Virus record (IMG/VR): IMGVR_UViG_3300006793_000018
Location: 26,301 to 90,300 of that record
Reading direction: 5' to 3' (one strand)
Source: a virus
Length of the DNA stretch: 64,000 nt
In this document: positions 2,615 through 41,211 of the stretch, piece after piece
How positions within the stretch are numbered: position 1 is the first letter of the stretch
How the letters are laid out: the number at the start of each line of letters is the position of its first letter
The notes under the pieces: generated by a model
Told to the model about the DNA's origin: nothing
The model's database searches: none
Seen by the model: the letters and a program-made list of their open reading frames with translations, nothing else
Translations under genes and position numbers: made by a program

Positions 2615-4003
2615 TTGATGACGGCAGCAAACCTCTCAGTATCCTCCGCAACATGGTCTGCGGATGGCTCTGATTTTTTGCTAAAATCTGCTGCATCAAA
2701 CGGCGATCTATTCGTCGCAGGATATGCATCGGTCGATATGGTCGATAAGCAGGGAGATCGTATCCCAGTCCCTGCGCTAAAGAAGGCATTCAATCAATTC
2801 ATGGGCAACAAGGCATTCCGCAATGTCCAGTTGGCACACTCTGGCATCCAAGTTGGAGAAGTTGTTTCCGATTACAAAGATACAGAAGGCCGACTTTGGA
2901 AATCCGAAGTCGATGATCATGGATTGTTCGTTGTTTGCAAGATCCGCAACGACATTCAAAAGGCACGTGAAGTGCAGAAGCAAATCCGCAATGGAGAACT
3001 ACGGGCGTTCTCAATTGGCGGTCAGGCACTATTTCGTGTGTCGAAAACAACCCCCGAACTCGGTACTCATCGTGAGATTACCGACCTTGAACTCCATGAG
3101 ATCACACTCTGCAAGAAGGGAATCAACCCTGAAGCAGCGTACACGATCCTAAAAATGGACGGAGATGACAACATGAGCAATACAGAAGTGTTAAACGAAA
3201 TTAAGGCAGGACTTTCCGAAGTTCTCAAAGAATTGAATGAAGGAAAGTCGGATGCAAAGACTGACGACAAATACATGAAAAATGTCGATTGTGACGATGA
3301 GGGCAACCCTATCGGACAAAAAGGCGATGACAAGATGAAGAAAGCCCAACAGGACGACGCTCTTGCATACATCGATACCCTCGAAAAGTTCGCTCACCAA
3401 TCTGGTGTTGATCTCGACGGACTCCGTGATCACTTTGGTTTGGAGAAGGCTTACCTTCCAGAACAAGGATCTGGCGGATACTCTCACCGAGGACAAGGCG
3501 ATGAAGTTGGATCTGGCGAAGATGCAACCGAACCATCGTACCCATCTCTCCCAAGTCCTGGCGGCAACCAATATGTGATCAAGGGGCCAAGTGTTCCTAA
3601 CATGAACATGGGCGCACCATCGGGCAACCAAAACGTCATCAAGTCCCTCACCCCAGAAACTCTGGAAAAGGGATACCGAACCTACGCTGCCCTTCGTGAC
3701 GAAGAAGCCGTGAAGGGTCTTGTCGAAAAGGAATGGCAGGAACGCTACAACGCAGAAACCGCACAGGCTCTCGAAGTTCGCAAAGCCAACGATGTCGGCG
3801 CACAAATCCACGCTCTCCGTGAAGAGATCTCGATGCTCAAGTCAGAGAATGTCGATCTCCAAAAGAGCGCAACCCCTGTGCCATCCGCACCAACCACTTC
3901 CATCCGAGTACCAACCCACGATGAATTTTCCCAAATGGGATCTGACCTCGAAGGCTGGCGAGCCGCAGAAGCACTTGCTATGCGAGCATTGCGAGGGGAA
4001 TAA
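2615..4003 (+). CDS. HK97-type prohead protease fused to a C-terminal scaffold
   Basis: AGYASVDMVDKQGDRI, QLAH (His), VDDHGLFV, RAFSIGG (Ser), LHEITL..INPEA; charged coiled-coil C-terminal half; directly upstream of the MCP. Confidence 0.9.
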   Translation: MMTAANLSVSSATWSADGSDFLLKSAASNGDLFVAGYASVDMVDKQGDRIPVPALKKAFNQFMGNKAFRNVQLAHSGIQVGEVVSDYKDTEGRLWKSEVDDHGLFVVCKIRNDIQKAREVQKQIRNGELRAFSIGGQALFRVSKTTPELGTHREITDLELHEITLCKKGINPEAAYTILKMDGDDNMSNTEVLNEIKAGLSEVLKELNEGKSDAKTDDKYMKNVDCDDEGNPIGQKGDDKMKKAQQDDALAYIDTLEKFAHQSGVDLDGLRDHFGLEKAYLPEQGSGGYSHRGQGDEVGSGEDATEPSYPSLPSPGGNQYVIKGPSVPNMNMGAPSGNQNVIKSLTPETLEKGYRTYAALRDEEAVKGLVEKEWQERYNAETAQALEVRKANDVGAQIHALREEISMLKSENVDLQKSATPVPSAPTTSIRVPTHDEFSQMGSDLEGWRAAEALAMRALRGE

Positions 4004-4024: not shown

Positions 4025-5179
4025 ATGACGCAAGGATACATCCGAACAATCGAAGACATGGAACGCCTTTACTACGGTGCTGGCGCAGGATCGAACGCAT
4101 GGGCATACAGTGGAACTGACCTACTCAAGGCAGACTCACCTTTGATGTCCTCAACCGCTGGAACTTACAACGCCATCTTTGGCCGTAAGGTTTGGTCGCA
4201 ACTCAACCAAGAATTCAACGCTTTCTCAATTCTTCCTAAGAAGCCTTGGGAAAAGAGTGGATGGCGTGTCGTGACCGGCAAGCCTGACGAAGCCAGTGGA
4301 CTTCCTGAAAACGGAACCCTCCCTGACTCCACCAAGCCAACCTTCCACGAAGTCAGCACCAAGCCAAAGACCATTGCAAGCAAGTTCGACTTGAGCGAAA
4401 CCGCAATGTTCCTTGCAGACAAGGACGATGGACTTGGCGATGCACGTGCTGTGATCAAGATGGAAATGTCGAAGTCTCACGCTGAGTCGATCAACAAGAT
4501 GCTCCTTCGAGATGTCAACGTCGTCGCTGGAAACAACTTTGAATCCATTGACCGTGCAATCTCCTCCTCCTTCGTTGAGAAGTCTGGAATGTCCGACATC
4601 AGTTCCGCAGCAGTTCACAACCAATACAGTCTCACCCGTGACTCCTCTGGTGCTACTTCCCGTGAATGGTACGACGCCAACGTCGATGCTGGTGCAAACG
4701 GTGCTTCCAACGAACGCCCTCTCACCCTCAACATCTTGGATGGAATGTTCCGAGCAGTTTGGGAACGGGGAGGTCAGCCAAAGGTTATCCTCACTGGATA
4801 CGACACTGTTGAGAAGATCCAACAACTCCTTCAACCACAACAACGGTTCACTGAGATGAAGCGCGTCACGCCTTCCGTCAACGGTGTTCAAGGTGTTCCT
4901 GGTATGGATGCTGGATTCGTCGTTGCAACATACAACGGCGTCCCGATCATTCCTTCCAAGGATGTTCAAGATGATGGTCTTTCTCGACTATACTTCATCG
5001 ACACTGACTACACCTACTTCTGCACGGCTAAACCAACTCTTTACCACGAATCTGGTATCGAAACTGGCGATCCATTCGGTATCAACCGTCTTGGACAAGT
5101 CGGCCTATTCCACACAATGGGCGAACTCTGGCAACTCTTCTATGGCGCACACGGCAAGATCCGAGATCTTAGTGCCTGA
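4025..5179 (+). CDS. Major capsid protein (HK97 fold)
   Basis: 384 aa, follows the protease, strong SD (AGGAGA), strongly biased codon usage; capsid-like segments (GLPENGTLPD, KPKTIA, GGQPKVILT, TYNGVPIIPS, HGKIRDL). Confidence 0.9.
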   Translation: MTQGYIRTIEDMERLYYGAGAGSNAWAYSGTDLLKADSPLMSSTAGTYNAIFGRKVWSQLNQEFNAFSILPKKPWEKSGWRVVTGKPDEASGLPENGTLPDSTKPTFHEVSTKPKTIASKFDLSETAMFLADKDDGLGDARAVIKMEMSKSHAESINKMLLRDVNVVAGNNFESIDRAISSSFVEKSGMSDISSAAVHNQYSLTRDSSGATSREWYDANVDAGANGASNERPLTLNILDGMFRAVWERGGQPKVILTGYDTVEKIQQLLQPQQRFTEMKRVTPSVNGVQGVPGMDAGFVVATYNGVPIIPSKDVQDDGLSRLYFIDTDYTYFCTAKPTLYHESGIETGDPFGINRLGQVGLFHTMGELWQLFYGAHGKIRDLSA

Positions 5180-5206
5180 AGACAAAAAACATGGAGATGA
5201 TGAAAC

Positions 5207-5596
5207 ATGGCAAACACAAACCTAACAAGCGGAACAATTGTCGCTGATGTCCCAATGTGGGCTGGCGTACTCGAAGAAAGCAACACCGACTGGCTACAAG
5301 AGCCAATCGGTACGAACACGGCTGCTGGCGCAGTTCAAATGATGATCATTGATTTGGTCGTCACAAGCAACGCCGCAACCGTCTTCGATCTTGCTGATGT
5401 CGCAACTGGCACTCGACTGGATTTCCAGGGCGACACCGCCCACGGAGCAGCCGTTATTGCTGTCCTTGGCATTGAGAACCGAACTGGTGGACACGAAGAC
5501 ATGACCTTGGTACGTGGAGAAGGAGCGCAAGTTCTCTTCACCGCACCATCTGGCGTTTCAGGCGACACAGTTCGATTGACCATCATGTACCGTTGA
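5207..5596 (+). CDS. Putative capsid decoration/minor head protein
   Basis: Beta-rich 129 aa ORF immediately after the MCP with similar codon bias; SD GGAGATGA. Confidence 0.5.
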   Translation: MANTNLTSGTIVADVPMWAGVLEESNTDWLQEPIGTNTAAGAVQMMIIDLVVTSNAATVFDLADVATGTRLDFQGDTAHGAAVIAVLGIENRTGGHEDMTLVRGEGAQVLFTAPSGVSGDTVRLTIMYR

Positions 5597-28700: not shown

Positions 28701-30279
28701 GTCAGGAACCTTGGCAGATCTAACTGGGGCAACTGTATCCGATTATGTTGGCATGACTTGGTATTACACAGATGTTTCGTCCTTAACTGAGGTGGGGACT
28801 CTCTTTGATGCAAGAAGTACGGTGAGGAAACAGGTGGTTGCACCTTCTTTCATCGACAATGCAGTTGTTGTATCAAAAATCCAAAGACACACATGGCCGT
28901 TTTACAATCGAGAGAAGAATACAGTGGAAAAAACAACGCTCTCATTCCAAGGATTACTGCATTACGAACCGTCCGATTTCGTCATGGCTCAACAAAATTC
29001 ATTCTCCTTAACCAACGGTAAGGATCGGGGCGTCATTCAATCAAAGGGTGAAACTCAAAGGATCAAACATGATGGACTAAATATCAATGAATCTCAATTC
29101 CCTCCGCATGTTATCGATGGCAACAGAAACAAGTGGACGGTTGCCAGTGTCAAAAACGATTTAGACACCGACTACATGTCCTTTAATGACCTAAGCGAAA
29201 AGAATTTGAAAGATTCTGGCATCGATATTTCCAACCTTCGAGGAGTTCAGTTAGGAAACATAGGTATGAGAAGCACCGATGCAGCAATGAGATTATTGAA
29301 TGACGCTGGAGGCGACTTTGCCGGTATTCGATTAGCAAAACCAGATCAGGTATCAGTTGGCAACAAAATCAACAAAAACACAGACTCTCATCCGATATTG
29401 AAAGAGCGAAATCAACACAGTGACATATTTGTATCGAGAGATGCAAGAGGTTTGAACACTATGGATGTGATCCGAAATCTCTCTCAAATCGATAATCGTC
29501 AAATAATCAATTACCGAGCAGGTCAACTTGTTTATTCCGACAAGGTGTTTGACGATACAGGTTTGAGTTTAGGTGTGGAAAATGGAGCCGAAGACATCAT
29601 CGTTAGTCGTTTGTTCGATTCACCAAACGAAATTGTGATCGTAGGGGATGTGATTTCTGGAAATGAGATTGTGTTTGTTCGTATTCAAGACAGTGAACGA
29701 ATTAGGGAATCTGCGGCTAACGGAGAAGAAGGTTTGGTCAAGACATTGCGTCAACAGATACCTGGTTTGAAGACAGTGAAGGAAGCAAGATCCATCGCAA
29801 AGGCTTTGCTCTCCCGTGTTGAAAATGGTGCGCCGATGATACGAATAAGAGGTTTAATGAATGCCACATCGGTTTCAGCAGGTGATCTTATTTCAGTGAA
29901 TCTTCCAACTCACGGAGTTGTCGGAAAGTTTGCTGTGTTTGAAGCAGAGCATACTCATTCCACTGGTAAAACAAATCTTGTGATTGCACAGTATGAGAAA
30001 GGTATCGAAGGAATACTCGCAGATCTTCGTACAGAATCTGTTGTGGTCAGTGGATTGAACAGTTCATCAGCAGATGAAAAAGACATCAAAAACATATCGA
30101 TGTCCACATCTATTCAAATCGTTGCAGTTCATCGACTATCTGTGAGGAACACAAATAATACAGGTTTTGTGATAGGTGCAAAACACAAAAACGGCCTTGG
30201 AAGCATAGGTGTTCGGGATAATAACAAAAGGGGTGTACCCCTCGGTTCAAGCAAGAGCCGTAAGTACGTGGTGAAATGA
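22753..30279 (+). CDS. Giant tail protein (2508 aa) with internal LamG domain and C-terminal Tal/hub-like region
   Basis: SLWLKAD...DSSGN...QIAEIILYPRALTTDEIKEVESYLSRKY; C-terminal NEIVIVG...ARSIAKALL...VSAGDLISVNLP. Confidence 0.7.
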   Translation: MADVFPRSFYPAKYRLMGKTADGMPKSGIMSMHITYPDTEYDHEDIEDWESGVNSTDWRQGVTVLIRTNLAAASSSIAEAKNVIAVDLKQQRIDHASAVHTYDLGTEEATRFIAAKINSRRIKMVGERDKTSYLKARYVRQSMDQKYKIESLTYFSGSSVIAKIKTLGSTGFPTEMIGHYQLRIDGTGGGSKYLNIGTYDLSAIPTLLYRSGNYSYVTFSSTGYTFTGSPSAGDSLSSVGVSLTTDVGATHTVVLAWQKITPHSYWSEANLGPVVQGVGSIGLHKFVAKPMDGGNMGLPATNHHTKNGREAVAFTTGNGYNRFSIEGLNSCNMPSIPPPDYHITSPHIEGITSLHPNTISDIASNQLRIERLEGGVELPVVSTSHKIALENGYEGSFSSATTASIYKDGADPHLTNFSMATIHQTHGIKDSNQEAYARPFRMTGTTNENRVTGLNISNEERVFDDIEVLDGQGNKLVLKGKSPWGTIIRDFTFSNERENPLTGLVEVGPSSPGGNLTPNLKIQLPSQDDIPGGIFVRSGHDRVQAWSDKTWGMGGLSAPNPRKAGVAENSNETSQFDTHDRMLIFHCQRILHDKLEQYHGLNLRAEDGGARSGQTRLFASHRISDHAERGSVLKQTNNGVETGNLIPHHRIRFARYGHSFVSPTLHRGTPMSMRRQLHRSHGSAYSLMFEGETEYKHHGFGSGDNTNSATVFELDTLEAKVSSSYATGSFAGDGIPLSELKGMRLPDVDGSYTSVNHRNCLDYLFAPGQEHTKAEGISQSVEFALASASLSGSKSATRLTVQGGTLTENNRFGTANEFMINGFMLNQYLGMGGRLEPIRKLSADSTGNWFVRGFAEGVIRPRVATELATVPPLFAHDPELLNMNAAPVSLSNTVPSTSFNKPSDADHGLIKDADTFSGAKPDAFLCNWLAEYSHPSLFGTSREHFLMFRYREAGMPRSRDYPAVNGLFLRNASHPTTDAQPLKSSAFERLYIAQWLQNWGFNGLNASGHGNIEGLRGAGAVRMGHSTIREASGTLRLRSENSNGNRFSRGEGIGDGIDPTKEIGVVMGIDKDTDNEDFNKQFFTFQPCVAIDVSRRLPVRSWGFRTGSDALNMLAGDPNEADAGNSQAMLNSGRFDGGIHDSVQDLASPFSISDGIDWGNYGTTLGIERSVPVGFVANDFTVEAMKDERNIRQSNELLSPNEKIGIGNRVGITQNGMLSPHVMASGGWDYELDDTRPTELPISGASLWLKADALDLQDGDAITSWIDSSGNDIEFVQATASAQPTFVKSNANFNNMPVVDCDGNDKLLSAAGYLESLNTAQFTLFAVACSDTDDNSYQGIISSRRAPVGSPSRQGFNLYAKWSGTDQWGFWWGQNTGWGQLYTSSVENRMNVGIPDVVACVMSGGDGAGATAAQTLRVNGCQEATATNAFWRMTAGQTSIANVPSPYFLQGQIAEIILYPRALTTDEIKEVESYLSRKYDKKFTATASPHPALYYDLNTKPLNKGTDPWIDLQQWTGSASYDQTLSPSAKIAQTTDFVTGSQFYHLRGNALHTNMRPITKTLGTYSYPPNGQSQISGSSLTVNEAMPLLTSEISDIRQIQSRAEPRLGLVMEVESERIENKKVQYGVVGTRSVSLHSDLMLGYHFPVLPSHQIKSQLQLEGFTVDGAGTATAEKDFTTKPTWSPDSNASKGAIVLTGDSVRMDHKTHALDAWAVRGSADLPAWGGVYILRKTYISRNGEDTMKSQVDSNTGKAVASHPVRKYVDYIVRPVRPLKLFAFASDLLQDGFVLGPRASLSGTYDKYGSQIFTRDKRYGIFEMNADRDLGEVEPITSAEGSFEISYPDFNEFDVVWHLIPSANMLQFAKSDAHRISNDEIMQPSIEPRYSQSSHVGGGGKISQSETLYDTSKGIMGDHAIHSKDGEISQSQDALRLYPRVKVMTNKGANVYSLDDASVLPKGGGKIFALNHSGVLTYSSIEGDDITISSGTLADLTGATVSDYVGMTWYYTDVSSLTEVGTLFDARSTVRKQVVAPSFIDNAVVVSKIQRHTWPFYNREKNTVEKTTLSFQGLLHYEPSDFVMAQQNSFSLTNGKDRGVIQSKGETQRIKHDGLNINESQFPPHVIDGNRNKWTVASVKNDLDTDYMSFNDLSEKNLKDSGIDISNLRGVQLGNIGMRSTDAAMRLLNDAGGDFAGIRLAKPDQVSVGNKINKNTDSHPILKERNQHSDIFVSRDARGLNTMDVIRNLSQIDNRQIINYRAGQLVYSDKVFDDTGLSLGVENGAEDIIVSRLFDSPNEIVIVGDVISGNEIVFVRIQDSERIRESAANGEEGLVKTLRQQIPGLKTVKEARSIAKALLSRVENGAPMIRIRGLMNATSVSAGDLISVNLPTHGVVGKFAVFEAEHTHSTGKTNLVIAQYEKGIEGILADLRTESVVVSGLNSSSADEKDIKNISMSTSIQIVAVHRLSVRNTNNTGFVIGAKHKNGLGSIGVRDNNKRGVPLGSSKSRKYVVK

Positions 30280-30280
30280 T

Positions 30281-30622
30281 ATGCCTGTTCTCGACCCCCT
30301 CAAAGCCGCTTTGACCGATCACCTTCAAACGCTGATCAAGAATTGCACATTGGGTTCGTCTGGATCCAAAGCATCAAGCAGAGACAGTGGGGCAGGAAAT
30401 ACTCAACTGAATAAAAATGTTGAGATTCAAAGAATCGATGATCGAACCATCTCAATCAATGCTTTTTTTGATTCTCAGCAAGCATCGGCTCAACCAATCC
30501 AAGAAGTTGTTTTGCACGGAACAAATGCCCTCGACGCACCTGCATTCCGAACGACGTTTGTCCCGATCCAAAAAAATACAACGAACGAGGTTCGGATTGA
30601 AATTTTGATGGAGGTTCGATAA
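30281..30622 (+). CDS. Putative baseplate/tail-fibre-attachment small protein
   Basis: LGSSG...IQEVVL...RTTFVPIQKNTTNEVRIE resembles tail-collar/baseplate small proteins. Confidence 0.45.
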   Translation: MPVLDPLKAALTDHLQTLIKNCTLGSSGSKASSRDSGAGNTQLNKNVEIQRIDDRTISINAFFDSQQASAQPIQEVVLHGTNALDAPAFRTTFVPIQKNTTNEVRIEILMEVR

Positions 30623-30840
30623 TGACTGAAACATTTGAGATGGCATGGGAATTGATGAAAAGCGACGAGAAGGGCGACAACGCCCCAACCAACCCAGGTC
30701 TCTGGTCGCAAGCCAAATCAAAGGCTCGATCCAAGTTCAAGGTGTACCCTTCGGCCTACGCCAACGGTTGGGCTTCTAAGTGGTACAAGTCCAAAGGCGG
30801 CGGCTGGAAGAAAAAGTCAAAGGGAGGCAAAAAGAAATGA
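30622..30840 (+). CDS. Small basic protein with N-terminal AWELMK leader
   Basis: MTETFEMAWELMKS...PTNPGLW...FKVYPSAYANGWASKWYKSKGGGW. Confidence 0.7.
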   Translation: MTETFEMAWELMKSDEKGDNAPTNPGLWSQAKSKARSKFKVYPSAYANGWASKWYKSKGGGWKKKSKGGKKK

Positions 30841-30878
30841 CTCACGAAGCACTTGAGAAAGCATGGGAATTGATGAAA
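30643..30878 (+). repeat. 18-bp exact direct repeat GCATGGGAATTGATGAAA (30643-30660 and 30861-30878) encoding AWELMK
   Basis: Seen directly at the 5' ends of two adjacent unrelated genes. Confidence 0.9.
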
Positions 30879-31046
30879 GAACGATACACAGGAATGGATG
30901 GCAACCGAACACGTGAGAGGCGTGGCAAATGCTCCGAATGTGGTGCAAAACAGACTTGGGATCCATGTGGTCTTTTGGTACATAGCCCAAGACACTCTGA
31001 TCATGCCTATGCGTTTGAATGCCCCAATTTCCAATACACGGAATGA
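30837..31046 (+). CDS. Small Zn-finger protein with N-terminal AWELMK leader (start corrected to ATG 30837)
   Basis: ATGA overlap with the upstream stop; MTHEALEKAWELMKE...CSEC...C...H..H...C. Confidence 0.65.
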   Translation: MTHEALEKAWELMKERYTGMDGNRTRERRGKCSECGAKQTWDPCGLLVHSPRHSDHAYAFECPNFQYTE

Positions 31047-31052
31047 TTCACC

Positions 31053-31673
31053 ATGATCAACGCCCCCATCTCGGATCTTATCGAAAAAGACTTGAGGCGT
31101 TGGTTCAAAGAAAAATGGGTTGACGTTTCTCGCAAGGATAAGGATGGCAAGCATCCTCCTTGTGGACGTGGCGAAGCAAAGACGGATAGTAAGGGCTATC
31201 CAAAATGTCGTCCTTCAAAGAAGGTTTCTTCCAAAACCCCTAAAACAACGAGGGGTATGAGCCAATCGGACAAGAAAGCGGCTACGCGCCGTAAGCGATC
31301 CAAACCCCAAGGAGTAGGAGGGAAACCAACCATGGTCAAAGCGTTTAGATGTGAGTGTGAAAGTTGCGATTTGCTGTCAAAAGCAATGATCTCAAAGGCA
31401 AAGAAAAATTCCAAGCCATTCCATGGCTACAACCCAAACCGACATAGCAGAAAGGGCGGTTTGAACGCAAAGGGACGGGCAAAGGCCAAGCGTGAAGAAG
31501 GCGCAAATCTCAAACCACCTGTCACCACCAAGCCAAGCAAACTCAAGGCTGGATCAAAGAAGGCTAAGAGGCGTAAGTCCTTTTGCGCCCGAATGAGTGG
31601 AGTCAAAGGTCCAACCAGTAAAGGTGGAAAAATGACTCCAAAGGGTGCGGCATTGAAACGGTGGAATTGTTGA
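31053..31673 (+). CDS. Highly basic two-module protein
   Basis: LRRWFKEKWVD..CGR..YPKCRP module and GGLNAKGR..NLKPPV..RRKSFCARM..ALKRWNC module; very Lys/Arg-rich. Confidence 0.65.
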   Translation: MINAPISDLIEKDLRRWFKEKWVDVSRKDKDGKHPPCGRGEAKTDSKGYPKCRPSKKVSSKTPKTTRGMSQSDKKAATRRKRSKPQGVGGKPTMVKAFRCECESCDLLSKAMISKAKKNSKPFHGYNPNRHSRKGGLNAKGRAKAKREEGANLKPPVTTKPSKLKAGSKKAKRRKSFCARMSGVKGPTSKGGKMTPKGAALKRWNC

Positions 31674-31674
31674 T

Positions 31675-32811
31675 ATGTCGAACACTAATTTGGCAGAAGG
31701 CCATGAAAAGACCGCATCGTCAACATATCAAAACGATGGACTCCGTGACACCGATGTTCTTGCCAGTCCATCTTTGACCAACTTTGTTGAGAACGGTTTA
31801 GGGAACGGGATTATCCCAATCACCCTAAACAGATACGATGAAAGCGACCGAAACAATCCGATCAGCGGAAATGGGTGTGTACGTCCAAACGGCACGTTAG
31901 GATCGACAAAGGAATTGTATGTGGACACTGGTGTTGCCCAACTTGACGGTATGTTTTATGACATTGGATCGGGATCGGTTTTAGACATCGGTGCTACAAC
32001 AAACTATCACTCTTCATACCATGGCGCAGCGATACCAAATGGAACAAACCCAGGGGATGAAGCAATACTCCTGGTTTATGTCGATCCTCGTCTTCCTAAC
32101 AATGTTGGATTCGTTTATGGATCATATGTCGATACTGCAACCGGCTTGTATCCAAGTTCTCCGAGTGCAGAGTTGGTGAGGCAGAACACCATATTGGCAT
32201 CTGTTCGAGTTGGCAAAGGAGCAAGCAATCCCGTGATACATGCAATTGAAGATAAGAGGTCATTCATTCGCCCAGGTCCCGTTCCATTGTCAGCCATGGA
32301 ACATAGCGATGGAAGTAAATCTGGGACGAGAAATGATTTCGTCGCTGGACTTAATGCAGCAAACCTTCCCATCCCCAACTTAGGCGTAATTTATGCCCGC
32401 GATCCTGATGGATTTGTTCAATATCCTCAAGGTGCTGGTCAAACGCATTTATTTTTCCAATCCGATGTATCGCTTGGACGGCCATTTGGAGGAGGCGGAG
32501 AATATCAAATCACGCCAATACATCGGACAAGTAAGACCCCTCTAATTGCTTATCCGCCAGGGCATCCACTTGATCTTAGGTGGGGAGTGGATCTTAAATT
32601 TGGGCCTTTGGTAAGTGAAGAAGACGGATTAACTTCGCTCGTTTGGGTTGATTGCTATGGAGCGGCAGGTGAATCGCTTGGAAGTTTGGCTGAAAACCTT
32701 CACTATAACGTTGGTTCGAGATTATCCCTGCCCGATCCTTTGTCATTGCCCCCCCCGTTAGATCAATCAACACAAGTCGTCATAACCTATGTTCACGCTT
32801 CCCACGTATGA
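31675..32811 (+). CDS. Hypothetical virion structural protein
   Basis: 378 aa Gly/Pro/Asn-rich; ILASVRV...IEDKRSFI pattern seen in tail-associated proteins. Confidence 0.5.
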   Translation: MSNTNLAEGHEKTASSTYQNDGLRDTDVLASPSLTNFVENGLGNGIIPITLNRYDESDRNNPISGNGCVRPNGTLGSTKELYVDTGVAQLDGMFYDIGSGSVLDIGATTNYHSSYHGAAIPNGTNPGDEAILLVYVDPRLPNNVGFVYGSYVDTATGLYPSSPSAELVRQNTILASVRVGKGASNPVIHAIEDKRSFIRPGPVPLSAMEHSDGSKSGTRNDFVAGLNAANLPIPNLGVIYARDPDGFVQYPQGAGQTHLFFQSDVSLGRPFGGGGEYQITPIHRTSKTPLIAYPPGHPLDLRWGVDLKFGPLVSEEDGLTSLVWVDCYGAAGESLGSLAENLHYNVGSRLSLPDPLSLPPPLDQSTQVVITYVHASHV

Positions 32812-32820
32812 GGCGGTAAA

Positions 32821-33027
32821 ATGTCAAGAGCATATCGAGACAAGGTTAGCCAAACGTGCGAAAAATGCAACGCTGATGTTCTCGCTGTACGCATAAACGG
32901 TTTCTATGCGGGAAGTAGGGACAGAATGTTCTTGTGGGAATGCCCTTTGTGTGAGCATGTATGGAAGAAGCCTGTGCCGCTGATTCAACCTATCCCTTCG
33001 ATCAATGGGGGTTTATTGCATGACTGA
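32821..33027 (+). CDS. Small Zn-ribbon protein
   Basis: CEKC...WECPLC; SD GAGGCGGT. Confidence 0.65.
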   Translation: MSRAYRDKVSQTCEKCNADVLAVRINGFYAGSRDRMFLWECPLCEHVWKKPVPLIQPIPSINGGLLHD

Positions 33028-33265
33028 GGCATTTGACCAAGCATGGGACTCCATCGTCAAAGGACGCTTTCGAGGATACACCCGTGCAAACATCGGAGAT
33101 CGTCCAGTACGAGCAGGAAAAGCCAAGGCATGGAGTCAAAGTCGAAAGGTCAAACGTGGCCGTACTGCAAGGCGGTACAAAAGAAACAAATCCAGAGGAA
33201 CTGTGCGACCTGCCATGCGTAGGCAGTTAGGCGCAGGTGGCAAAAGAGCCTCAACAAAGAGATGA
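33020..33265 (+). CDS. Small Arg-rich protein with N-terminal AFDQAWDSIVK leader (start ATG 33020)
   Basis: MTEAFDQAWDSIVKG followed by a protamine-like basic region. Confidence 0.65.
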   Translation: MTEAFDQAWDSIVKGRFRGYTRANIGDRPVRAGKAKAWSQSRKVKRGRTARRYKRNKSRGTVRPAMRRQLGAGGKRASTKR

Positions 33266-34452
33266 TTGAGATGAACGATGATGTCTTTGAGGAAGTATTT
33301 GAGGCACTTCTCAAAGCAGCAGATCGGCTCAATTTTGCTGAACTCTTCGCAGGTTTAGGCGGTTCCTCCCTGATTGAGTTTTTGGGCGAAGGAGGATGGG
33401 GAGGAGCAGCAAAGAAACGAGGACACAATGTCCAAGCATACGAACTGGATCCATCATTGAAACAAGGAGATCCAAATTATCACATTCGAGATGTCATGGA
33501 CATGAATGCAGAAGAGATCATGGATGACTTCGATTGGGAAGGCATCGACGCTGGTGTCGCTTCCTTTCCTTGCAAAGCATTCACTACTGCATCAGGAAAC
33601 AAAGGATGGATTTGGGATAAAAGGTGGATGGATCAGTATTCCGATTTGACAGGGAAGGATTGGGATGAAACCAAATCAACTGGTTGGCATTGGGATCGGG
33701 TCAAACCCCACTACAACAAGAACAGAGGCCAAGGATCCAAATTGGGATTCTCAGGCAACGTTGCAGCCTCAAGCCCAGACTCGTATGAGCGTGATGAATT
33801 AGGACGATATTTGGATATGCAAGGCAAACCAATGATGACTCGAAGAGGAGGAAAACCTGTACCGATGGGCGACGAACAGATCCAGTCGGCCATTGATCGA
33901 CGCGAATTGGGAATGAGTTTATTGACTCAATCTCGCAAATTGTTTGATGACCTAAAAAGTTTGAATCCTGATATGTATCAAGTGTATGAGAACCCTGCGA
34001 CGGGCAGGGCAAGATACACGAACGAATTATCGGATCTCCCAATGAAAACCATCGATGCAGCAGCATATCGAGATCCCGCGCACTCTAACCTCTTTGGACT
34101 TCCTCGAAACGAAAATCTGTTTGAGATGACCCCAGGTTCGCTTCCTGCTTTGAAACCAACGGATCTGTTTGGACATTTCCCCGACACCTTTGTTCCACGA
34201 CCACGATTGCCTCGAAGTCTCAGTGGTAAGTTCTATGAAAAGGCTCCACGTGGATCGAAGTCAGGTATTCAAGGCGTAGGAGATTTGCCAGCAAATACCC
34301 TCTTCCCTGGAAGCCCAACCATTGACAAATTCCATTTGCGATCAGTCATTCCCTATTGGCTCGGTCATGACTTTATTCAATCAGTTGAAGAAGCCCAAGG
34401 CGTCAAACCTCAATCTCCAGTAATTTCCGACGTCAAATTGCCAATGCTTTGA
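33262..34452 (+). CDS. C5-cytosine DNA methyltransferase-like protein (divergent), last gene of the virion arm
   Basis: Motif I ELFAGLGG, motif II AYELD, motif IV SFPCKAF, motif VI VYENP, KPTDLF, RSVIP; long insertion between motifs IV and VI. Confidence 0.75.
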   Translation: MIEMNDDVFEEVFEALLKAADRLNFAELFAGLGGSSLIEFLGEGGWGGAAKKRGHNVQAYELDPSLKQGDPNYHIRDVMDMNAEEIMDDFDWEGIDAGVASFPCKAFTTASGNKGWIWDKRWMDQYSDLTGKDWDETKSTGWHWDRVKPHYNKNRGQGSKLGFSGNVAASSPDSYERDELGRYLDMQGKPMMTRRGGKPVPMGDEQIQSAIDRRELGMSLLTQSRKLFDDLKSLNPDMYQVYENPATGRARYTNELSDLPMKTIDAAAYRDPAHSNLFGLPRNENLFEMTPGSLPALKPTDLFGHFPDTFVPRPRLPRSLSGKFYEKAPRGSKSGIQGVGDLPANTLFPGSPTIDKFHLRSVIPYWLGHDFIQSVEEAQGVKPQSPVISDVKLPML

Positions 34453-35108
34453 ATTGGAATCCTCACCTTTTTGTTTGTACGGTGATCACGAACCAGTATT
34501 TGTGGGCGTCGGAAAATACGATGCGCTAATTCAGCACACCAAACTGCTTCCGTTTTCAACTTCTTTATCCCCTTTCTTCTTTGACCATAATGCCATGAAT
34601 GAATCATCTTCATATGCGTAAATCCAATCAAATCTGCAACATTTATTGAGTTCTCACAAGCATTCCAAAATGCTAACTGAAAGAGTCGGAATCGTTTTCC
34701 TCCTTCCCCGCTGTGTTTTTCGTATGCTTTGAACGATTCCTGCAAAATATCGTAATACTCAACATTTAGTTCAAAATCCTCTTCTGCATTGAGATATTCC
34801 TCTAACAATGGAATCCCAAACTTTTCCAAATCATAGCCTACTAAAAACGAGTCTTGGATGAATTCTTTCAATTCCCAAAGAGGAAGAGGGTTGGTCTTTG
34901 TGTTGTCTTCAAGAACATACGATACATCTGCCTTTCCTTTATCGGAAAAGACATGAAAACGATCATTTTTCCAGATCACAACTGCGGCTAAATTGAACCT
35001 TGAAGGAACGCTATAACCTGTCACCAAATCACTTGCGTCGGTATCCGAAAAAATCGCAATAGGTACAATCTTTTTCTTCGATAAAAATTTCTTAGTTTTC
35101 TTCTTCAT
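34410..35108 (-). CDS. RNase H-fold (YprB/DEDD exonuclease-like) protein, probably degenerate
   Basis: FLVGYDLEKFGIPLL and YYDIL..RFRLFQLA resemble the GYN..FD.P.L and D..L segments but acidic catalytic residues look substituted. Confidence 0.4.
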   Translation of the reverse strand: MKKKTKKFLSKKKIVPIAIFSDTDASDLVTGYSVPSRFNLAAVVIWKNDRFHVFSDKGKADVSYVLEDNTKTNPLPLWELKEFIQDSFLVGYDLEKFGIPLLEEYLNAEEDFELNVEYYDILQESFKAYEKHSGEGGKRFRLFQLAFWNACENSINVADLIGFTHMKMIHSWHYGQRRKGIKKLKTEAVWCAELAHRIFRRPQILVRDHRTNKKVRIPIQSIGNLTSEITGD

Positions 35109-35112
35109 AAAA

Positions 35113-36582
35113 TCACCAGTTCAAAGCAATGAATGCATTTCTCCCGTCCATCAAACGATCAGCGTCAGGAGATTCGGATAACTTCTTCAAGCGTCGTTCC
35201 GCCGTTTTGGTGCTAACGCCTTGATCAACAGCATAGACCTTCTCAAGTTCTTTCTTAGCCACACATTCACGCTTTGATCGAGAATGAACCATCCTGCTAC
35301 ACTTTCCATATGCAATCTTCCATTCGTGCAAAGATGCATCACGCTTCTTTTTCGCCTTGAAATCCTGCTTCTGCTCAAGCCATATGATTAGGTTGTGCAT
35401 GTTGTCGTAAATGATCTCAGTTGCCATCATGACATGATCAGCGGTGATGATCTTGCTGCCCATTATCGTTGCAATGATGTTTGAGAATGTAATCGTATAA
35501 TTTTCGATGTTGGGTATGAATGATGTTGCTGTTTCTTTGATATTTGGATTGGCGATGCCATTGACCAAATCATAATAGTCGGCTGTTGCATTAAGTAAAG
35601 CAGCATGGTATCCTTCCCCCACATCAAACAGATCGTATGCATATTGATTGGCGATTGAATCTCTTTCGTTATCATCCATTTCGTTCCATTCTTGTTGAGT
35701 CGTAGCCGATGCCTTCAACAATCTGTCACGAACCTGATCCTTGCGATCCAAGATAAATTCTGCAATTTCCGAGTACCCCCACACTTTATCGGGTACGGGA
35801 ACATAAGTTCCAGAGATACGATGCTCACTGGTTGTTTGACGCAACTCATTGCTGACATCATTTTGATACAAGAATACACGCTGGAAGAACCCTTTCTCCA
35901 ATACATGGTGCATGATGTCCTTCGGGGGGAAAGTTGTCGCCCAAAGAGATACTCCTGAAACGATGTTGATCGGTGCGCCCTTCAATACCTTTGAAAGATC
36001 ATTTGTGGCAGAACCAATGGGGGCCATTGCTTCTTGCAGGTACAGGATCTTCTCTGAAAAATACGCCTTTCTGTCGTCCAGCAAAACACTACCTTCATCG
36101 AAAAGGAGAGTTTTGTACCCATTAAGCAATCCTTTAGTGACCACATAATTGGTCTTGCCAGTTGGCTTTCCGTTTTCATCCACTTCGGGTTCAGCATCGA
36201 CGTGTCCAAGCAAACCTGCGTCCGAACCAGATGTGAATTTGGCGGTTTCGACCTCGCATTCGATCAGCAGTTTCTTTGTAAATTCATATGCAGCAGACTT
36301 CCCTGTTCGAGATTGTTGTATCCAAAACACATGCACTCTGGTGTCGAGAAACATTCCGTGTATTGGAACTCGAACATAGGGTGCGAGGACTTGGCCTACG
36401 ACATAAAACAGTGAAAGCAAGCCAGCATATTCGTTGAAAAAGGACACCGTGTTGAAACGTTCGATGTATTCTCGAATGAATTTGCTTCCCTTAAACGGGG
36501 ACTTGACTAATGTGTAGTCGTCCCATTTTCTTTCTCCAGAGTCGGTTGATGGTTTCATGAGCATTTGATTCACCTGTCGCAA
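35113..36582 (-). CDS. MCM-like AAA+ ATPase/replicative helicase
   Basis: Walker A QSRTGKS, GSDAGLLG, Walker B LLFDEG, LQEAM, GFFQR; C-terminal wHTH-like region. Confidence 0.65.
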   Translation of the reverse strand: MRQVNQMLMKPSTDSGERKWDDYTLVKSPFKGSKFIREYIERFNTVSFFNEYAGLLSLFYVVGQVLAPYVRVPIHGMFLDTRVHVFWIQQSRTGKSAAYEFTKKLLIECEVETAKFTSGSDAGLLGHVDAEPEVDENGKPTGKTNYVVTKGLLNGYKTLLFDEGSVLLDDRKAYFSEKILYLQEAMAPIGSATNDLSKVLKGAPINIVSGVSLWATTFPPKDIMHHVLEKGFFQRVFLYQNDVSNELRQTTSEHRISGTYVPVPDKVWGYSEIAEFILDRKDQVRDRLLKASATTQQEWNEMDDNERDSIANQYAYDLFDVGEGYHAALLNATADYYDLVNGIANPNIKETATSFIPNIENYTITFSNIIATIMGSKIITADHVMMATEIIYDNMHNLIIWLEQKQDFKAKKKRDASLHEWKIAYGKCSRMVHSRSKRECVAKKELEKVYAVDQGVSTKTAERRLKKLSESPDADRLMDGRNAFIALNW

Positions 36583-38816: not shown

Positions 38817-40148
38817 TCACCACAATGTCATTTGCTTCCTTGCCTTCGGCTTGCTCCGATTTGACAAGTCTGCTGAGTCCATCATATCAATTCTCTCTCC
38901 GATCCATTGCATAACTGGAACCGCCATGCTATTTCCAAGACCTTTGTATCGATGTGAATCAGGGCATTCCTCTGCTGGTTTTCCCTTCCACGGAACTTTT
39001 GTGTAGTTATCGGGAAATCCTTGGAGCCGTTCGCATTCAAGTGGAGTTAGCCTACGAACGATGGCATTTTCTCGAATTGCTGCATAACCTTGCCCCGCTA
39101 ATCCTCCTCCACTTGTAAGGCTCATGTGTCGTTCTGGCGTTTCCCAAATATCGCCATTGCCTTTGCTCACAATACCCGCCACCTCTTTTTGCTGCATAAC
39201 TGCTGGTGCGCCATGACCTCCCGCTGTTCTTAATGGGCAATGGAGATCTCCTGTCAACTCTTGATTGAATAAATCGACGCCTTGTTGCTGGAAGGCTGAT
39301 TTTTGCACAACTAACGCTTCATGCTCAACCCTTTGGTTTCCTGTTCGAGAATAAGGTGGACCGCTTGCCCCCATAGTGGGTCCGACCTTTTCAGCATGAA
39401 TGATTCCCTTTTCCATAATCAAATGAGCATTGGTTCCTAAGCATTGGTTGTTGATCGAGCCATGATGATACATACCTGCCGTCAAAGATCCAGCAGGTTT
39501 TTCTTCACTTATTCCTCTTCCAACAGGTCTGCTCTCGCTTCCAAAGCCGAACGCAGAGAGGGATTGATCTTCTTCCCTCTTTTGTCTGCTCGACGCAAGA
39601 TTCCCCTGGAGGCTCTGCTTGTCAAATAGTACCGCTGCGGCACTTCTCCAATCTCCGTCAGCACATCCGACAACGAAGATTCGACGCCTTCGTTGGGGTA
39701 CTCCGAAGTGTTGAGCGTCAAGAACTCGATAGGCGAACCCATACCCGAGTTTCGCCACTTCTCCGAGGAAGATGGCAAAATCATCTCCTTCGTTTGATGA
39801 CAATAGACCTGGGACATTTTCATAGAGGAACCACTTTGGGCGAACTGCCCCAACAACTCGGAGATAGTGGAGGGCCAAGTTGCCACGTGGATCATCCATT
39901 CCAAGTCGCTTTCCTGCGACAGAAAAGGATTGGCAGGGGCTTCCTCCGACGACGAGATCGGCTGCTCCTTCATATTTTGACCAGTCAACATTCAACACAT
40001 CCTTGAGGTTGGGTACATTTGGATAATGGTGAGCAAGCACCGCAGATGGAAAATCATCAAAGTCAGCAAAGGCAACAGGATCCCAATTGAGATTTCGCCA
40101 TCCAACTGAACACGCTTCGATTCCGCTAAACAGGCTGATATATCGCAC
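38817..40148 (-). CDS. dcm: C5-cytosine DNA methyltransferase (Dcm family)
   Basis: SLFSGIE, GGSPCQSFS, ENVPG, QRRRRIF, RRLTPLECERLQGFP, GNSMAVPV. Confidence 0.92.
   Translation of the reverse strand: MRYISLFSGIEACSVGWRNLNWDPVAFADFDDFPSAVLAHHYPNVPNLKDVLNVDWSKYEGAADLVVGGSPCQSFSVAGKRLGMDDPRGNLALHYLRVVGAVRPKWFLYENVPGLLSSNEGDDFAIFLGEVAKLGYGFAYRVLDAQHFGVPQRRRRIFVVGCADGDWRSAAAVLFDKQSLQGNLASSRQKREEDQSLSAFGFGSESRPVGRGISEEKPAGSLTAGMYHHGSINNQCLGTNAHLIMEKGIIHAEKVGPTMGASGPPYSRTGNQRVEHEALVVQKSAFQQQGVDLFNQELTGDLHCPLRTAGGHGAPAVMQQKEVAGIVSKGNGDIWETPERHMSLTSGGGLAGQGYAAIRENAIVRRLTPLECERLQGFPDNYTKVPWKGKPAEECPDSHRYKGLGNSMAVPVMQWIGERIDMMDSADLSNRSKPKARKQMTLW
39509..39991 (-). CDS. Out-of-frame nested gene within the MTase, resembling the alternative-frame beta polypeptide of M.EcoHK31I-type enzymes
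   Basis: 160-codon same-strand ORF in the +1 frame; C-terminus SSLSDVL..PQRYYLTSRASRGILRRADKRGK. Confidence 0.65.
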   Translation of the reverse strand: MLTGQNMKEQPISSSEEAPANPFLSQESDLEWMIHVATWPSTISELLGQFAQSGSSMKMSQVYCHQTKEMILPSSSEKWRNSGMGSPIEFLTLNTSEYPNEGVESSLSDVLTEIGEVPQRYYLTSRASRGILRRADKRGKKINPSLRSALEARADLLEEE

Positions 40149-40149
40149 A

Positions 40150-41208: not shown

Positions 41209-41211
41209 GGT

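What the first reader, a model, noticed from the sequence alone, without database searches (positions are those of the whole stretch)
33262..34452. A C5 DNA methyltransferase in the structural arm with the leader directly before motif I: possibly virion-packaged and co-ejected
Seen: the MTase is the last gene of the + strand late arm, coupled by ATGA to a leader-bearing basic protein. Its acidic leader ends in LLK-AA only a few residues before the first catalytic strand (LNFAELFAGLGG). It has ENP rather than ENV and a long low-complexity insertion between motifs IV and VI. A second, canonical Dcm sits in the replication arm. Inference: this copy could be packaged and delivered with the genome, or act during packaging, to protect DNA from host restriction before any viral gene expression.
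Basis: inference. Interest (0 to 1): 0.8.

Follow-up and report, generated by a model that had tools for sequence, protein, structure and literature searches.

The report
Address-tagged DNA methylase in ocean archaeal virus
A virus of abundant ocean archaea ends its particle-building genes with a very divergent DNA-methylase-like enzyme and a protamine-like protein that both carry the short peptide tag this virus puts on many unrelated proteins, probably a label for loading them into the virus head, though neither loading nor methylation has been measured.

Summary
ORF 33262-34452 has a C5-methyltransferase fold (AlphaFold pLDDT 91.5; Z 14.0 to DNMT3A, 12.7 to M.HhaI). The catalytic Cys, ENP and the SAM motifs are conserved, but motif VIII is K-P-T-D, not QxRxR. 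Its own Pfam score is below threshold. The motif IV-VI insertion is real but not low-complexity.

Homologues keep the leader (12 of 12 with an N-terminus) and the position: last gene of the tail-fibre strand in 8 of 9 related loci. Compact relatives of about 225 aa start directly at motif I.

New here: the enzyme pairs with the upstream pI-12 basic protein. Of 64 related viral loci with that protein, 15 have this C5-like gene beside it (3 fused to it). Another 14 have an unrelated Dam-like N6 methylase instead (1 fused), mostly tagged too. The genome also holds a third, tag-like C5 methylase.

The tag ends in hydrophobic-hydrophobic-Lys, like conserved motifs in the capsid protein and prohead protease. 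Head loading and co-ejection remain inference. This scan noted the tag in this genome (e1-6111536, e1-6111548) and the Dam-like version in another magrovirus (e1-6091207).

The parts
33262..34452 (+). C5-methyltransferase-fold protein, 396 aa (ENP / K-P-T-D subfamily). Motif I is F29-G33 (33346-33360), catalytic Cys104 is at 33571-33573, ENP at 33988-33996, and K298-D301 at 34153-34164.
   Evidence: invariant C104, E243, N244, P245, K298, T300 in 106 sequences; family profile to M.HhaI, E 5e-10; pLDDT 91.5; Z 14.0 DNMT3A, 12.7 M.HhaI.
33262..33315 (+). Leader or tag of the methylase, residues 1-18: an acidic amphipathic helix ending L-L-K. A possible alternative start is at 33271.
   Evidence: helix 6-19; pI 4.05. 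Orthologues keep the pattern F-x-x-hydrophobic-W-x-x-L-x-K.
33020..33265 (+). Tagged protamine-like basic protein, 81 aa from the ATG at 33020 (ORF opens at 33005). It has pI 12.0 and 25 K/R in the 67 residues after the tag, and is the conserved partner of the methylase.
   Evidence: 64 related loci; a methylase adjacent in 29 of 64, fused in 4.
30622..30840 (+). Tagged small basic protein, 72 aa, with a weak DUF5872 N-terminal part.
   Evidence: (PF19197, E 1.1e-4, below cut-off).
30837..31046 (+). Tagged small Cys-containing protein; the tag has L in place of F.
   Evidence: (orthologue in L001).
31053..31673 (+). DUF5872 + DUF6321 basic protein, 206 aa, with no clear tag. It is conserved in the module.
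   Evidence: (PF19846 1.4e-15, PF19197 3.4e-11).
31675..32811 (+). Conserved 378-aa protein of unknown function in the same module.
   Evidence: no family; homologues in L002, L004, L008-L011, L018.
32821..33027 (+). Small zinc-ribbon-like protein, conserved just upstream of the basic protein.
   Evidence: (weak DUF7479, below cut-off).
2615..4003 (+). Prohead serine protease (S78) fused to a scaffold-like C-terminal part. Its conserved hydrophobic-hydrophobic-Lys motifs are G-S-D-F-L-L-K24, Y-T-I-L-K180, V-I-K323 and V-I-K343.
   Evidence: PF04586, 1.2e-9; 36 sequences; K24, I178, L179, K180, V321, I322, K323, K343 invariant.
4025..5179 (+). Major capsid protein. About 35 N-terminal residues end ...A-W-A-Y-S-G-T-D-L-L-K|A.
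   Evidence: PF17236, 6.2e-9; 33.7% identity to HVTV-1 MCP; 94 of 120 homologues have W...LLK|A or S; sampled others have G-S-E-L-L-K|A.
38817..40148 (-). Canonical, untagged Dcm-type C5 methylase in the replication arm.
   Evidence: PF00145, E 1.3e-57, residues 1-420.
34410..35108 (-). First convergent gene of the replication arm. It overlaps the methylase 3' end by 43 nt.
   Evidence: A comparable overlap of 41 nt is seen in L002.

Best explanation
ORF 33262-34452 encodes a very divergent, probably active SAM-dependent C5-pyrimidine (most likely DNA cytosine) methyltransferase. It belongs to an uncharacterised subfamily with ENP in motif VI and K-P-T-D in place of QxRxR. With the upstream protamine-like protein (pI 12) it forms a two-gene module, sometimes fused into one gene, at the far end of the magrovirus structural gene string. 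Both proteins start with the lineage's amphipathic helix tag ending in Lys, which this genome puts on about 11 otherwise unrelated + strand proteins. The most likely mechanism has four steps. (1) The tag docks the proteins into the assembling prohead. (2) The S78 prohead protease removes the tag after the hydrophobic-hydrophobic-Lys. (3) The basic protein and the methylase stay with the packaged DNA. (4) They enter the next cell with it, where the methylase modifies or shields the incoming genome against restriction. Shown here: the fold, the conserved catalytic residues, the tag and its conservation, the gene pair and its fusions, and the swap with a Dam-like enzyme. Inferred: DNA as substrate, head loading, cleavage, ejection and the anti-restriction role. 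The confidence given is for the whole chain including head loading; the fold and the tagged methylase-basic protein module taken alone I hold at above 0.9.
For: Fold and residues. With a 106-sequence alignment the model has pLDDT 91.5 and pTM 0.90. All top Foldseek hits are C5 methylases, with 39 hits at E <= 1e-3. VIA-align gives Z 14.0 to DNMT3A (220 residues, 3.9 A) and Z 12.7 to M.HhaI, spanning model 21-381 and chain 10-324. The family profile hits M.HhaI at E 5e-10 over motifs I-IV. C104, E243, N244, P245, K298 and T300 are invariant, and G31, D77 and P103 nearly invariant, in 106 sequences. Compact relatives pass the Pfam PF00145 threshold.

Tag. 11 of 96 ORFs carry the pattern, against a mean of 0.54 in shuffles; all 11 are on the + strand. 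The tag is kept in 12 of 12 homologues with an N-terminus. The compact forms of about 225 aa start at motif I without it.

Position. The gene is last on the tail-fibre strand in 8 of 9 loci. No copy of the candidate promoter motif lies between 11747 and the gene.

Module. Of 64 loci with the basic protein, 15 have the C5-like gene adjacent (3 fused). Another 14 have a Dam-like PF02086 methylase adjacent (1 fused; 6 of 6 tested pass the Pfam threshold). Fused forms have one tag; split forms have one on each protein.

Cleavage logic. The tag ends like the conserved motifs G-S-D-F-L-L-K and Y-T-I-L-K of the protease (K24, I178, L179 and K180 invariant in 36 sequences) and G-[ST]-[DE]-L-L-K|A of the capsid protein. 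After a cut at K18 the protein would start 5 residues before strand 1, much as the compact relatives do.

Precedents. T4 internal proteins share only a capsid targeting sequence (PMC3012670, passages read). The N-terminal 30 residues of P1 DarB suffice for head loading (PMC9024508, abstract and section 3.3 passages read).
Against: No direct evidence of particles, cleavage or activity exists, because the virus is uncultured. The protein's own Pfam score fails the threshold (14.1 against 22 bits). Neither the 11-sequence profile against PDB sequences (best E 0.82) nor hhalign against the window's canonical Dcm (probability 4.4%) is significant. Motif VIII lacks QxRxR and motif X lacks G-N, so the substrate could differ from DNA cytosine. 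In some relatives the Pro before the catalytic Cys is shifted (S-P-Q-C, S-P-V-C). The tag is not always N-terminal: it is internal in P0016 and P0025 and internal or C-terminal in some L002 ORFs. This fits a docking helix but not a simple cleaved leader. In L008/L072, L079 and L070 the methylase lies on the replication-arm strand. In 31 of 64 basic-protein loci no methylase is found within 4 kb, so the enzyme is dispensable. By the strict pattern only 19 of 29 adjacent methylases show a tag; most of the rest have degenerate versions. The conserved L-L-K motifs lie in generally conserved segments, so they do not prove cleavage. Kinetically, a few packaged methylase molecules could hardly methylate a 90-kb genome before restriction acts (own reasoning).
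Confidence: 0.45

Rival explanations
1. The methylase is an ordinary cytoplasmic late enzyme. It methylates newly replicated viral DNA before or during packaging, helped by the basic DNA-binding protein. The shared tag serves another purpose than head loading: recruitment to an assembly or replication site, recognition by the virus-encoded thermosome, or timed proteolytic activation or removal.
For: Phage methylases normally act in the cytoplasm (general knowledge). The enzyme is dispensable: 31 of 64 basic-protein loci lack an adjacent methylase. The tag is internal in some proteins. The virus encodes a thermosome subunit (PF00118, E 3.2e-132). Several relatives carry the gene on the replication-arm strand. 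Tagged genes also cluster at the very start of the + arm, far from the head genes (genome 346-6385).
Against: This reading does not explain three things: why the untagged canonical Dcm sits in the replication arm while tagged methylases sit on the structural strand; why the tag ends in the same hydrophobic-hydrophobic-Lys as conserved motifs at the domain borders of the protease and capsid protein; and why a split of the fused gene is accompanied by a second tag.
Confidence: 0.33
2. The protein has the C5-methyltransferase fold but acts on something other than DNA cytosine, for example RNA, as DNMT2 does. Alternatively it is a catalytically inert DNA-binding or structural head protein.
For: Motif VIII QxRxR is replaced by invariant K-P-T-D, and motif X G-N by [RK]-S. 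Neither Pfam nor NCBIfam recognises it at threshold. DNMT2 tRNA methylases are among the fold and profile hits. No member of the subfamily carried a functional name in the sources read: of 44 cluster members read, 8 had a source label, and those seen were either 'hypothetical protein' or gene-coordinate text.
Against: The catalytic Cys and the E-N of motif VI are invariant in 106 sequences, and the SAM motifs I-III are conserved, which argues against an inert protein. The same genomic slot, including fusion to the same basic protein, is filled in other viruses by a Dam-like DNA adenine methylase, which argues that DNA methylation is the selected activity.
Confidence: 0.15
3. The packaged enzyme acts on host rather than viral DNA. 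For example, it could mark or protect the host chromosome, or reprogramme host gene expression right after entry.
For: Only the precedent that injected enzymes often act on host targets, such as T4 Alt (recalled, not read here), and the kinetic problem of self-protection (own reasoning).
Against: No evidence specific to this locus. The pairing with a protamine-like protein that would coat the packaged viral DNA points to the viral genome.
Confidence: 0.05

Closest known systems
Prokaryotic and eukaryotic C5 DNA methyltransferases (M.HhaI, M.HaeIII, DNMT3A/B catalytic domain, prophage CP-933R enzyme PDB 3G7U; Pfam PF00145)
   Same: Same fold over the whole catalytic domain (Z 12.7-14.0). Motif I F-x-G-x-G-G, the acidic residues of motifs II and III, motif IV P-C, and the E-N of motif VI are present. 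Like DNMT3, it has a small target-recognition region.
   Different: ENP instead of ENV, and K-P-T-D instead of QxRxR. Motif X is [RK]-S-V-I-P instead of G-N-x-V-P. There is a roughly 90-residue structured insertion between motifs IV and VI, a 10-residue insertion in the glycine loop, and an N-terminal tag. The protein's own score is below the Pfam threshold. No activity data exist.
Capsid targeting sequence (CTS) of phage T4 internal proteins IPI-III and Alt
   Same: A short N-terminal peptide shared by otherwise unrelated proteins, several of them enzymes or very basic proteins. It ends at a motif that recurs in the head proteins. T4 internal proteins are diverse and share only the CTS (PMC3012670, passages read).
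   Different: The sequence is different: F-x-x-A-W-x-x-L-x-K rather than the T4 type ending in Glu (T4 site recalled). The protease is an HK97-type S78 enzyme rather than T4 gp21. The host is archaeal. Loading, cleavage and ejection are untested here.
Phage P1 Dar anti-restriction system (DarB with DarA, Hdf, DdrA/B, Ulx)
   Same: A head-packaged protein that protects incoming DNA from restriction and is directed into the head by an N-terminal signal of fewer than 30 residues (PMC9024508, abstract and section 3.3 passages read). DarB has methyltransferase-like motifs (recalled, not stated in the passages read).
   Different: DarB is a 250-kDa multidomain protein, whereas this is a 44-kDa single-domain C5-type enzyme with a separate protamine-like partner. 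No sequence similarity was found: tblastn of the protein against 50,697 phage records gave no match at E <= 1e-3.
Tagged Dam-like methylase plus protamine-like protein in another magrovirus
   Same: Same tag, same basic partner, same slot. I reproduced the arrangement in IMG/VR loci L020-L030, L043, L067 and L073-L078.
   Different: The enzyme class differs: D12 N6-adenine (PF02086) there, C5-type fold here. The two are alternatives in the same slot rather than homologues.

Membership tests
C5 cytosine DNA methyltransferase superfamily (PF00145) | Score above the curated Pfam threshold | tested here: not met
   E 0.031, 14.1 bits against a cut-off of 22, residues 24-115 only. There were no NCBIfam hits. 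Compact relatives found with the family profile do pass: P0035 scores 49.8 bits.
C5 cytosine DNA methyltransferase superfamily (PF00145) | Catalytic-domain fold | tested here: met
   Model pLDDT 91.5. Z 14.0 to DNMT3A and Z 12.7 to M.HhaI over model 21-381. Top Foldseek hits are all C5 methylases.
C5 cytosine DNA methyltransferase superfamily (PF00145) | SAM-binding motifs I-III (F-x-G-x-G, acidic residue after strand 2, Asp of motif III) | tested here: met
   F29-A-G-L-G33, E61 and D77 are present. They align to M.HhaI motifs in the profile match at E 5e-10. G31 and D77 are nearly invariant. M.HhaI residue numbering is recalled.
C5 cytosine DNA methyltransferase superfamily (PF00145) | Motif IV Pro-Cys nucleophile | tested here: met
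   S-F-P-C104 is present. Cys is invariant and P103 nearly invariant in 106 sequences. In some magrovirus relatives the Pro is shifted.
C5 cytosine DNA methyltransferase superfamily (PF00145) | Motif VI E-N-V | tested here: inconclusive
   E-N-P is present, with all three residues invariant in the subfamily. The catalytic Glu is kept and Val is replaced by Pro. The effect is unknown.
C5 cytosine DNA methyltransferase superfamily (PF00145) | Motif VIII Q-x-R-x-R contacting the target cytosine | tested here: not met
   The corresponding strand (299-305) carries invariant K298-P-T300-D, with no Arg pair. Residue-level equivalence to M.HhaI was not derived from coordinates.
C5 cytosine DNA methyltransferase superfamily (PF00145) | DNA cytosine-5 methylation activity | not testable with these tools
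The only indirect support is the swap with Dam-like DNA methylases in the same slot.
T4-type capsid-targeting-sequence cargo | Short N-terminal peptide shared by unrelated proteins of one virus | tested here: met
   11 of 96 ORFs carry the pattern against a mean of 0.54 in shuffles. About 11 convincing carriers were seen across.
T4-type capsid-targeting-sequence cargo | The peptide ends at the prohead protease's cleavage motif | tested here: inconclusive
   It ends in hydrophobic-hydrophobic-Lys, like conserved motifs in the protease-scaffold and capsid protein. The real cleavage sites of this protease are unknown.
T4-type capsid-targeting-sequence cargo | The peptide is necessary and sufficient for encapsidation, and the cargo is present in virions | not testable with these tools
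   The virus is uncultured and no proteome was available.
T4-type capsid-targeting-sequence cargo | Sequence relationship to the T4 CTS and gp21 protease | tested here: not met
   The protease here is PF04586, the HK97-type S78 family. The tag sequence is unrelated to the T4 CTS (T4 sequence recalled). The resemblance is analogy, not membership.

The most novel reading that the evidence does not exclude
Magroviruses pre-load their heads with a DNA-modification kit. The kit is a protamine-like DNA-coating protein plus an interchangeable DNA methylase (C5-type or Dam-type), each addressed by a Lys-terminated helix tag that the HK97-type prohead protease removes. This would be the first capsid-targeting signal and the first injected anti-restriction cargo described for an archaeal virus. 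The ENP / K-P-T-D enzymes would be a new functional branch of C5 methylases.
Probability: 0.35. Interest if true: 0.8.

Novelty: new variant of a known kind. Interest (0 to 1): 0.62.

Why it matters
[quoted passage not shown] If the reading holds, it matters in four ways.

1. A portable address tag would assign a location (head interior, injected) to about a dozen unknown proteins per genome.
2. It would extend the T4 and P1 idea of injected anti-restriction cargo to archaeal viruses.
3. It gives a short peptide that can be tested directly in heterologous procapsid assembly.
4. The interchange of C5-type and Dam-type methylases on one basic partner is a natural experiment on which activity is selected.

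Separately, the ENP / K-P-T-D enzymes form a sizeable uncharacterised branch of the C5 methylase superfamily: 201 cluster representatives at E <= 1e-3. Standard annotation largely misses this branch.

Tried and rejected
Direct sequence tests that gave nothing:
- The 11-sequence profile against PDB sequences gave a best E of 0.82.
- hhalign against the window's own canonical Dcm gave probability 4.4%.
- NCBIfam gave no hit for the window protein.
- tblastn against 50,697 phage records gave no match.

The first structure prediction, with 11 sequences, was poor (pLDDT 53.6) and its Foldseek search was weak (best E 2e-3). Only the 106-sequence alignment gave a usable model.

Complex prediction, with the protease-scaffold (36-row alignment) against methylase residues 1-32, returned 'no answer' (ipSAE 0.00 and 0.00, controls not run). 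This is neither support nor evidence against. Capsid protein and portal were not tried because the cap is one job.

The look-up of sequencing runs for 29500-36000, kind rna, listed no RNA holder, so read laying was not used and nothing can be said about timing of expression.

I used the search for related loci on IMG/VR instead.

HVTV-1, the closest cultured relative by capsid protein, showed one pattern match in the 55-102 kb part examined (L003 position 362, a W-G-containing start unlike the F-x-x-A-W tag; I judged it chance), so no convincing tag. The first 55 kb were not examined.

Literature:
- Three magrovirus papers (PMC5434244, PMC11706807, PMC10160649) were searched by term in their main texts. 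'methyltransferase', 'methylase' and 'leader' each occur 0 times.
- The search 'capsid targeting sequence' + methyltransferase + virion found 0 papers.
- The search 'methyltransferase' + 'packaged into the capsid' + restriction + phage found 5 papers, none relevant by title or abstract.
- One search failed on a term that was too short and was not repeated.
- The HK97 cleavage-site search found no usable source, so cleavage after Lys by HK97-type proteases is recalled only.

Readings considered and rejected:
- The tag as a nucleotide-level start signal. Orthologues vary the residues while keeping the hydrophobic pattern.
- The long P0004 form as a true fusion. Its N-terminal extension resembles the alternative-frame ORF over the basic gene.
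- L031 as 'fused'. This is an artefact of stop-to-stop ORFs.
Full report
WHAT IS THERE. The window is the right-hand 64 kb of a 90.3-kb single-contig genome. It is a tailed archaeal virus. It has an HK97-type prohead protease fused to a scaffold-like part (2615-4003, PF04586, E 1.2e-9). Its SU10/HK97-type capsid protein (4025-5179) is 33.7% identical to that of haloarchaeal virus HVTV-1. It also has a long run of tail genes, and on the other strand a replication arm with a thermosome subunit, an ERCC4 nuclease, a PD-(D/E)XK nuclease, a PAPS-reductase-like protein and a canonical Dcm. This matches the published description of magroviruses of Marine Group II archaea, including the 33% capsid identity to haloviruses and the thermosome gene (PMC5434244, passages read).

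ORF 33262-34452 (396 aa) is the last gene of the + strand. From 11785 onward all + strand ORFs are 12 nt or less apart or overlap. Co-transcription with the tail genes is therefore a reasonable inference, but it is not shown. The ATGA overlap with the upstream basic ORF is real. An ATG at 33271 fits the usual register of the tag better.

IS IT A METHYLASE? On its own the protein is barely recognisable:
- Pfam PF00145 gives E 0.031, below threshold.
- PHROG 363 gives E 9.7e-6.
- There is nothing in NCBIfam.
- The 11-sequence profile finds nothing significant in PDB sequences, and hhalign to the window's own Dcm is not significant.

An HMM search of 1.84 billion cluster representatives found 201 relatives at E <= 1e-3. 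These comprise a few long, mostly tagged forms and many compact proteins of about 210-270 aa. The compact forms begin directly at motif I. They share S-P-P-C, E-N-P, K-P-T-D-L-W, P-R-G...G-x-Q-G and an I-P motif near the C-terminus, and they pass the Pfam threshold over motifs I-VI, for example P0035 at 49.8 bits.

A 106-sequence alignment has invariant C104, E243, N244, P245, K298 and T300, and near-invariant G31, D77 and P103. Its profile hits M.HhaI at E 5e-10. With this alignment AlphaFold gives pLDDT 91.5 and pTM 0.90. Foldseek returns only C5 methylases at the top. VIA-align gives Z 14.0 to DNMT3A and Z 12.7 to M.HhaI across the whole domain.

So the fold, the SAM motifs and the Cys/Glu catalytic pair are in place. 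Three things differ:
- ENP replaces ENV.
- The Arg pair of motif VIII is replaced by invariant K-P-T-D.
- Motif X is [RK]-S-V-I-P.

The roughly 90-residue insertion between motifs IV and VI is structured and of normal complexity. I therefore file the protein in the C5-methyltransferase superfamily by fold, as a divergent subfamily whose substrate is not established.

THE LEADER. Residues 1-18 form an acidic helix ending L-L-K, five residues before the first strand. In this virus the Trp of the consensus is Phe. Orthologues restore the consensus F-x-x-hydrophobic-W-x-x-L-x-K, and the more distant ones carry it twice. All 12 of 12 homologues with an N-terminus have it; P0008 is a fragment.

Among 14 more distant long forms that I read:
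- 8 start with the tag or a degenerate version.
- 2 have it internally, just before the methylase domain (P0016, P0025).
- 4 lack it as called (P0019, P0020, P0022, P0028). The loci of the P0019 type show an in-frame upstream W...A-L-M-K variant.

Genome-wide, 11 of 96 non-overlapping ORFs carry the pattern in their first 25 residues, against a mean of 0.54 and a largest value of 4 in 1000 shuffles. Two of these look like chance. Two small tagged ORFs (30622, 30837) fell outside that ORF set. All carriers are on the + strand.

THE MODULE. The gene order is tail fibre, a 113-aa protein, tagged small proteins, a DUF5872/DUF6321 protein, a protein of about 380 aa, a zinc ribbon, the tagged basic protein, the methylase, and then the convergent replication arm. 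This order recurs in L001, L002, L004, L009, L010, L011 and L018. In L011 the tag is broken by a one-base frame shift. In L008 the gene sits at the same junction but on the other strand. The tag-less P0022 type lies among small ORFs with no tail genes nearby (L006).

In P0014/L004, P0024/L018, P0027, P0033 and L066 the basic protein and the methylase are one polypeptide with a single N-terminal tag. Where they are separate, each has its own tag.

- C5-like in 15 loci: 10 directly downstream, 3 fused, 2 on the opposite strand.
- A D12-class N6-adenine methylase in 14 loci: 12 downstream, 1 fused (L067), 1 on the opposite strand. PF02086 is above threshold in 6 of 6 tested.
- Nothing within 4 kb in 31 loci.
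- Flank too short in 4 loci.

By a strict pattern 19 of these 29 methylases have a tag before the catalytic domain. Nine of the other ten have degenerate or frame-shifted versions, and for L070 I did not inspect the N-terminus. Two unrelated methylase folds, in the same slot, tagged and fused to the same basic protein, make DNA methylation the most likely selected activity. They also tie the enzyme functionally to the basic protein and the tag.

HOW IT MOST LIKELY WORKS. The tag ends in hydrophobic-hydrophobic-Lys. The same ending is conserved in three places:
- Before the protease domain (G-S-D-F-L-L-K24).
- After the protease domain (Y-T-I-L-K180-M), and twice in the scaffold part (V-I-K323 and V-I-K343). 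In 36 homologues of 65-95% identity K24, I178, L179, K180, V321, I322, K323 and K343 are invariant.
- At the end of the 35-residue N-terminal segment of the capsid protein. There, 94 of 120 homologues have W...L-L-K followed by A or S, and the sampled others have G-S-E-L-L-K|A.

HK97's own protease cuts its capsid protein after a Lys; this is recalled, and I found no source. By analogy with T4 internal proteins (PMC3012670) and P1 DarB (PMC9024508), I read the tag as a head-loading signal removed by the prohead protease. That would leave the protamine-like protein and the methylase inside the head with the DNA.

This step is inference. The one complex prediction allowed gave no answer, no RNA data could be listed, and the virus is uncultured. 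Several observations count against a simple leader model: internal tags in some proteins, methylases on the replication-arm strand in 3 loci, and the fact that half of the basic-protein loci have no methylase. Kinetics also make full self-methylation after entry unlikely. A cytoplasmic late methylase whose tag serves another purpose therefore remains a serious rival.

NOVELTY. Capsid-targeting tags and a packaged anti-restriction protein are known in bacteriophages T4 and P1. I found no mention of methylases or leaders in the main texts of three magrovirus papers, and no paper in two targeted searches. Supplementary tables could not be read. Within this scan, the tag in this genome (e1-6111536, e1-6111548, e1-6111537) and the Dam-like version in another magrovirus (e1-6091207) were already noted. 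New here are:
- the proof of the C5 fold;
- the ENP / K-P-T-D subfamily;
- the fusions;
- the C5/Dam interchange in one slot;
- the third, tagged C5 methylase.

I rate it a new variant of a known kind, with interest 0.62.

Noticed in passing
L012:2487-3821 (+), that is genome 2487-3821, outside the window: A third C5 methylase, 444 aa. PF00145 gives E 3.2e-9 over the C-terminal half and PHROG 116 gives 6.5e-12. Its motifs are more canonical (S-P-P-C-Q, T-R-N-R, Q-G-F, G-N-V-V-V-P) and it has a tag-like N-terminus. So two of the three C5 methylases in the genome are tagged and lie on the + strand.
   Followed up: partly
L012:346-6385 (+), genome coordinates: A cluster of six tagged ORFs at the very start of the + arm (starts 346, 1757, 2487, 3861, 4241, 5252). 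One of them (4241-5239) matches Pfam GP88 (PF17338, E 6.4e-21). The others, apart from the methylase, have no family. A further tagged 471-aa ORF (17270-18685) sits directly before a 478-aa ORF (start 18691) that I did not identify.
   Followed up: partly
window 34410-34452 and L002:11400-11440: The methylase and the first convergent replication-arm gene overlap tail to tail by 43 nt here and by 41 nt in the 34%-identical relative. The two arms therefore meet without any intergenic terminator region.
   Followed up: no
window 38817-42198 (-): The canonical Dcm is followed on the same strand by a PD-(D/E)XK nuclease (E 9.1e-19) and a PAPS-reductase-like protein (E 7.5e-11). This could be a DNA-modification or restriction-like cluster in the replication arm.
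   Followed up: no
L002:7907-8161 and L002:5651-6352: Tag-like peptides also occur at the C-terminus of a small Cys-rich ORF and inside a 233-aa DUF5872-type ORF. The motif may therefore work as a position-independent docking helix, or mark internal processing sites.
   Followed up: no
P0016 and P0025 (metagenome proteins): Two long forms carry a conserved Cys-containing N-terminal domain of about 160 aa ahead of the internal tag and the methylase domain. If the tag marks a cut site, this domain would be released.
   Followed up: no
window 30622-31673 (+): DUF5872 appears split. The 72-aa tagged ORF matches profile positions 1-49, and the 206-aa ORF matches 54-110 followed by DUF6321. In L002 a single 233-aa tagged ORF holds the first part, and in L011 a 479-aa ORF joins DUF5872/DUF6321 to the basic protein's C-terminus.
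   Followed up: partly
The protease-scaffold and capsid protein each have more than 1,300 relatives at E <= 1e-10 in the 5.8-billion-protein set, whereas the methylase has 13 at E <= 1e-3 by the same word-seeded search. The methylase is a fast-evolving or patchy accessory gene of an abundant virus group.
   Followed up: partly
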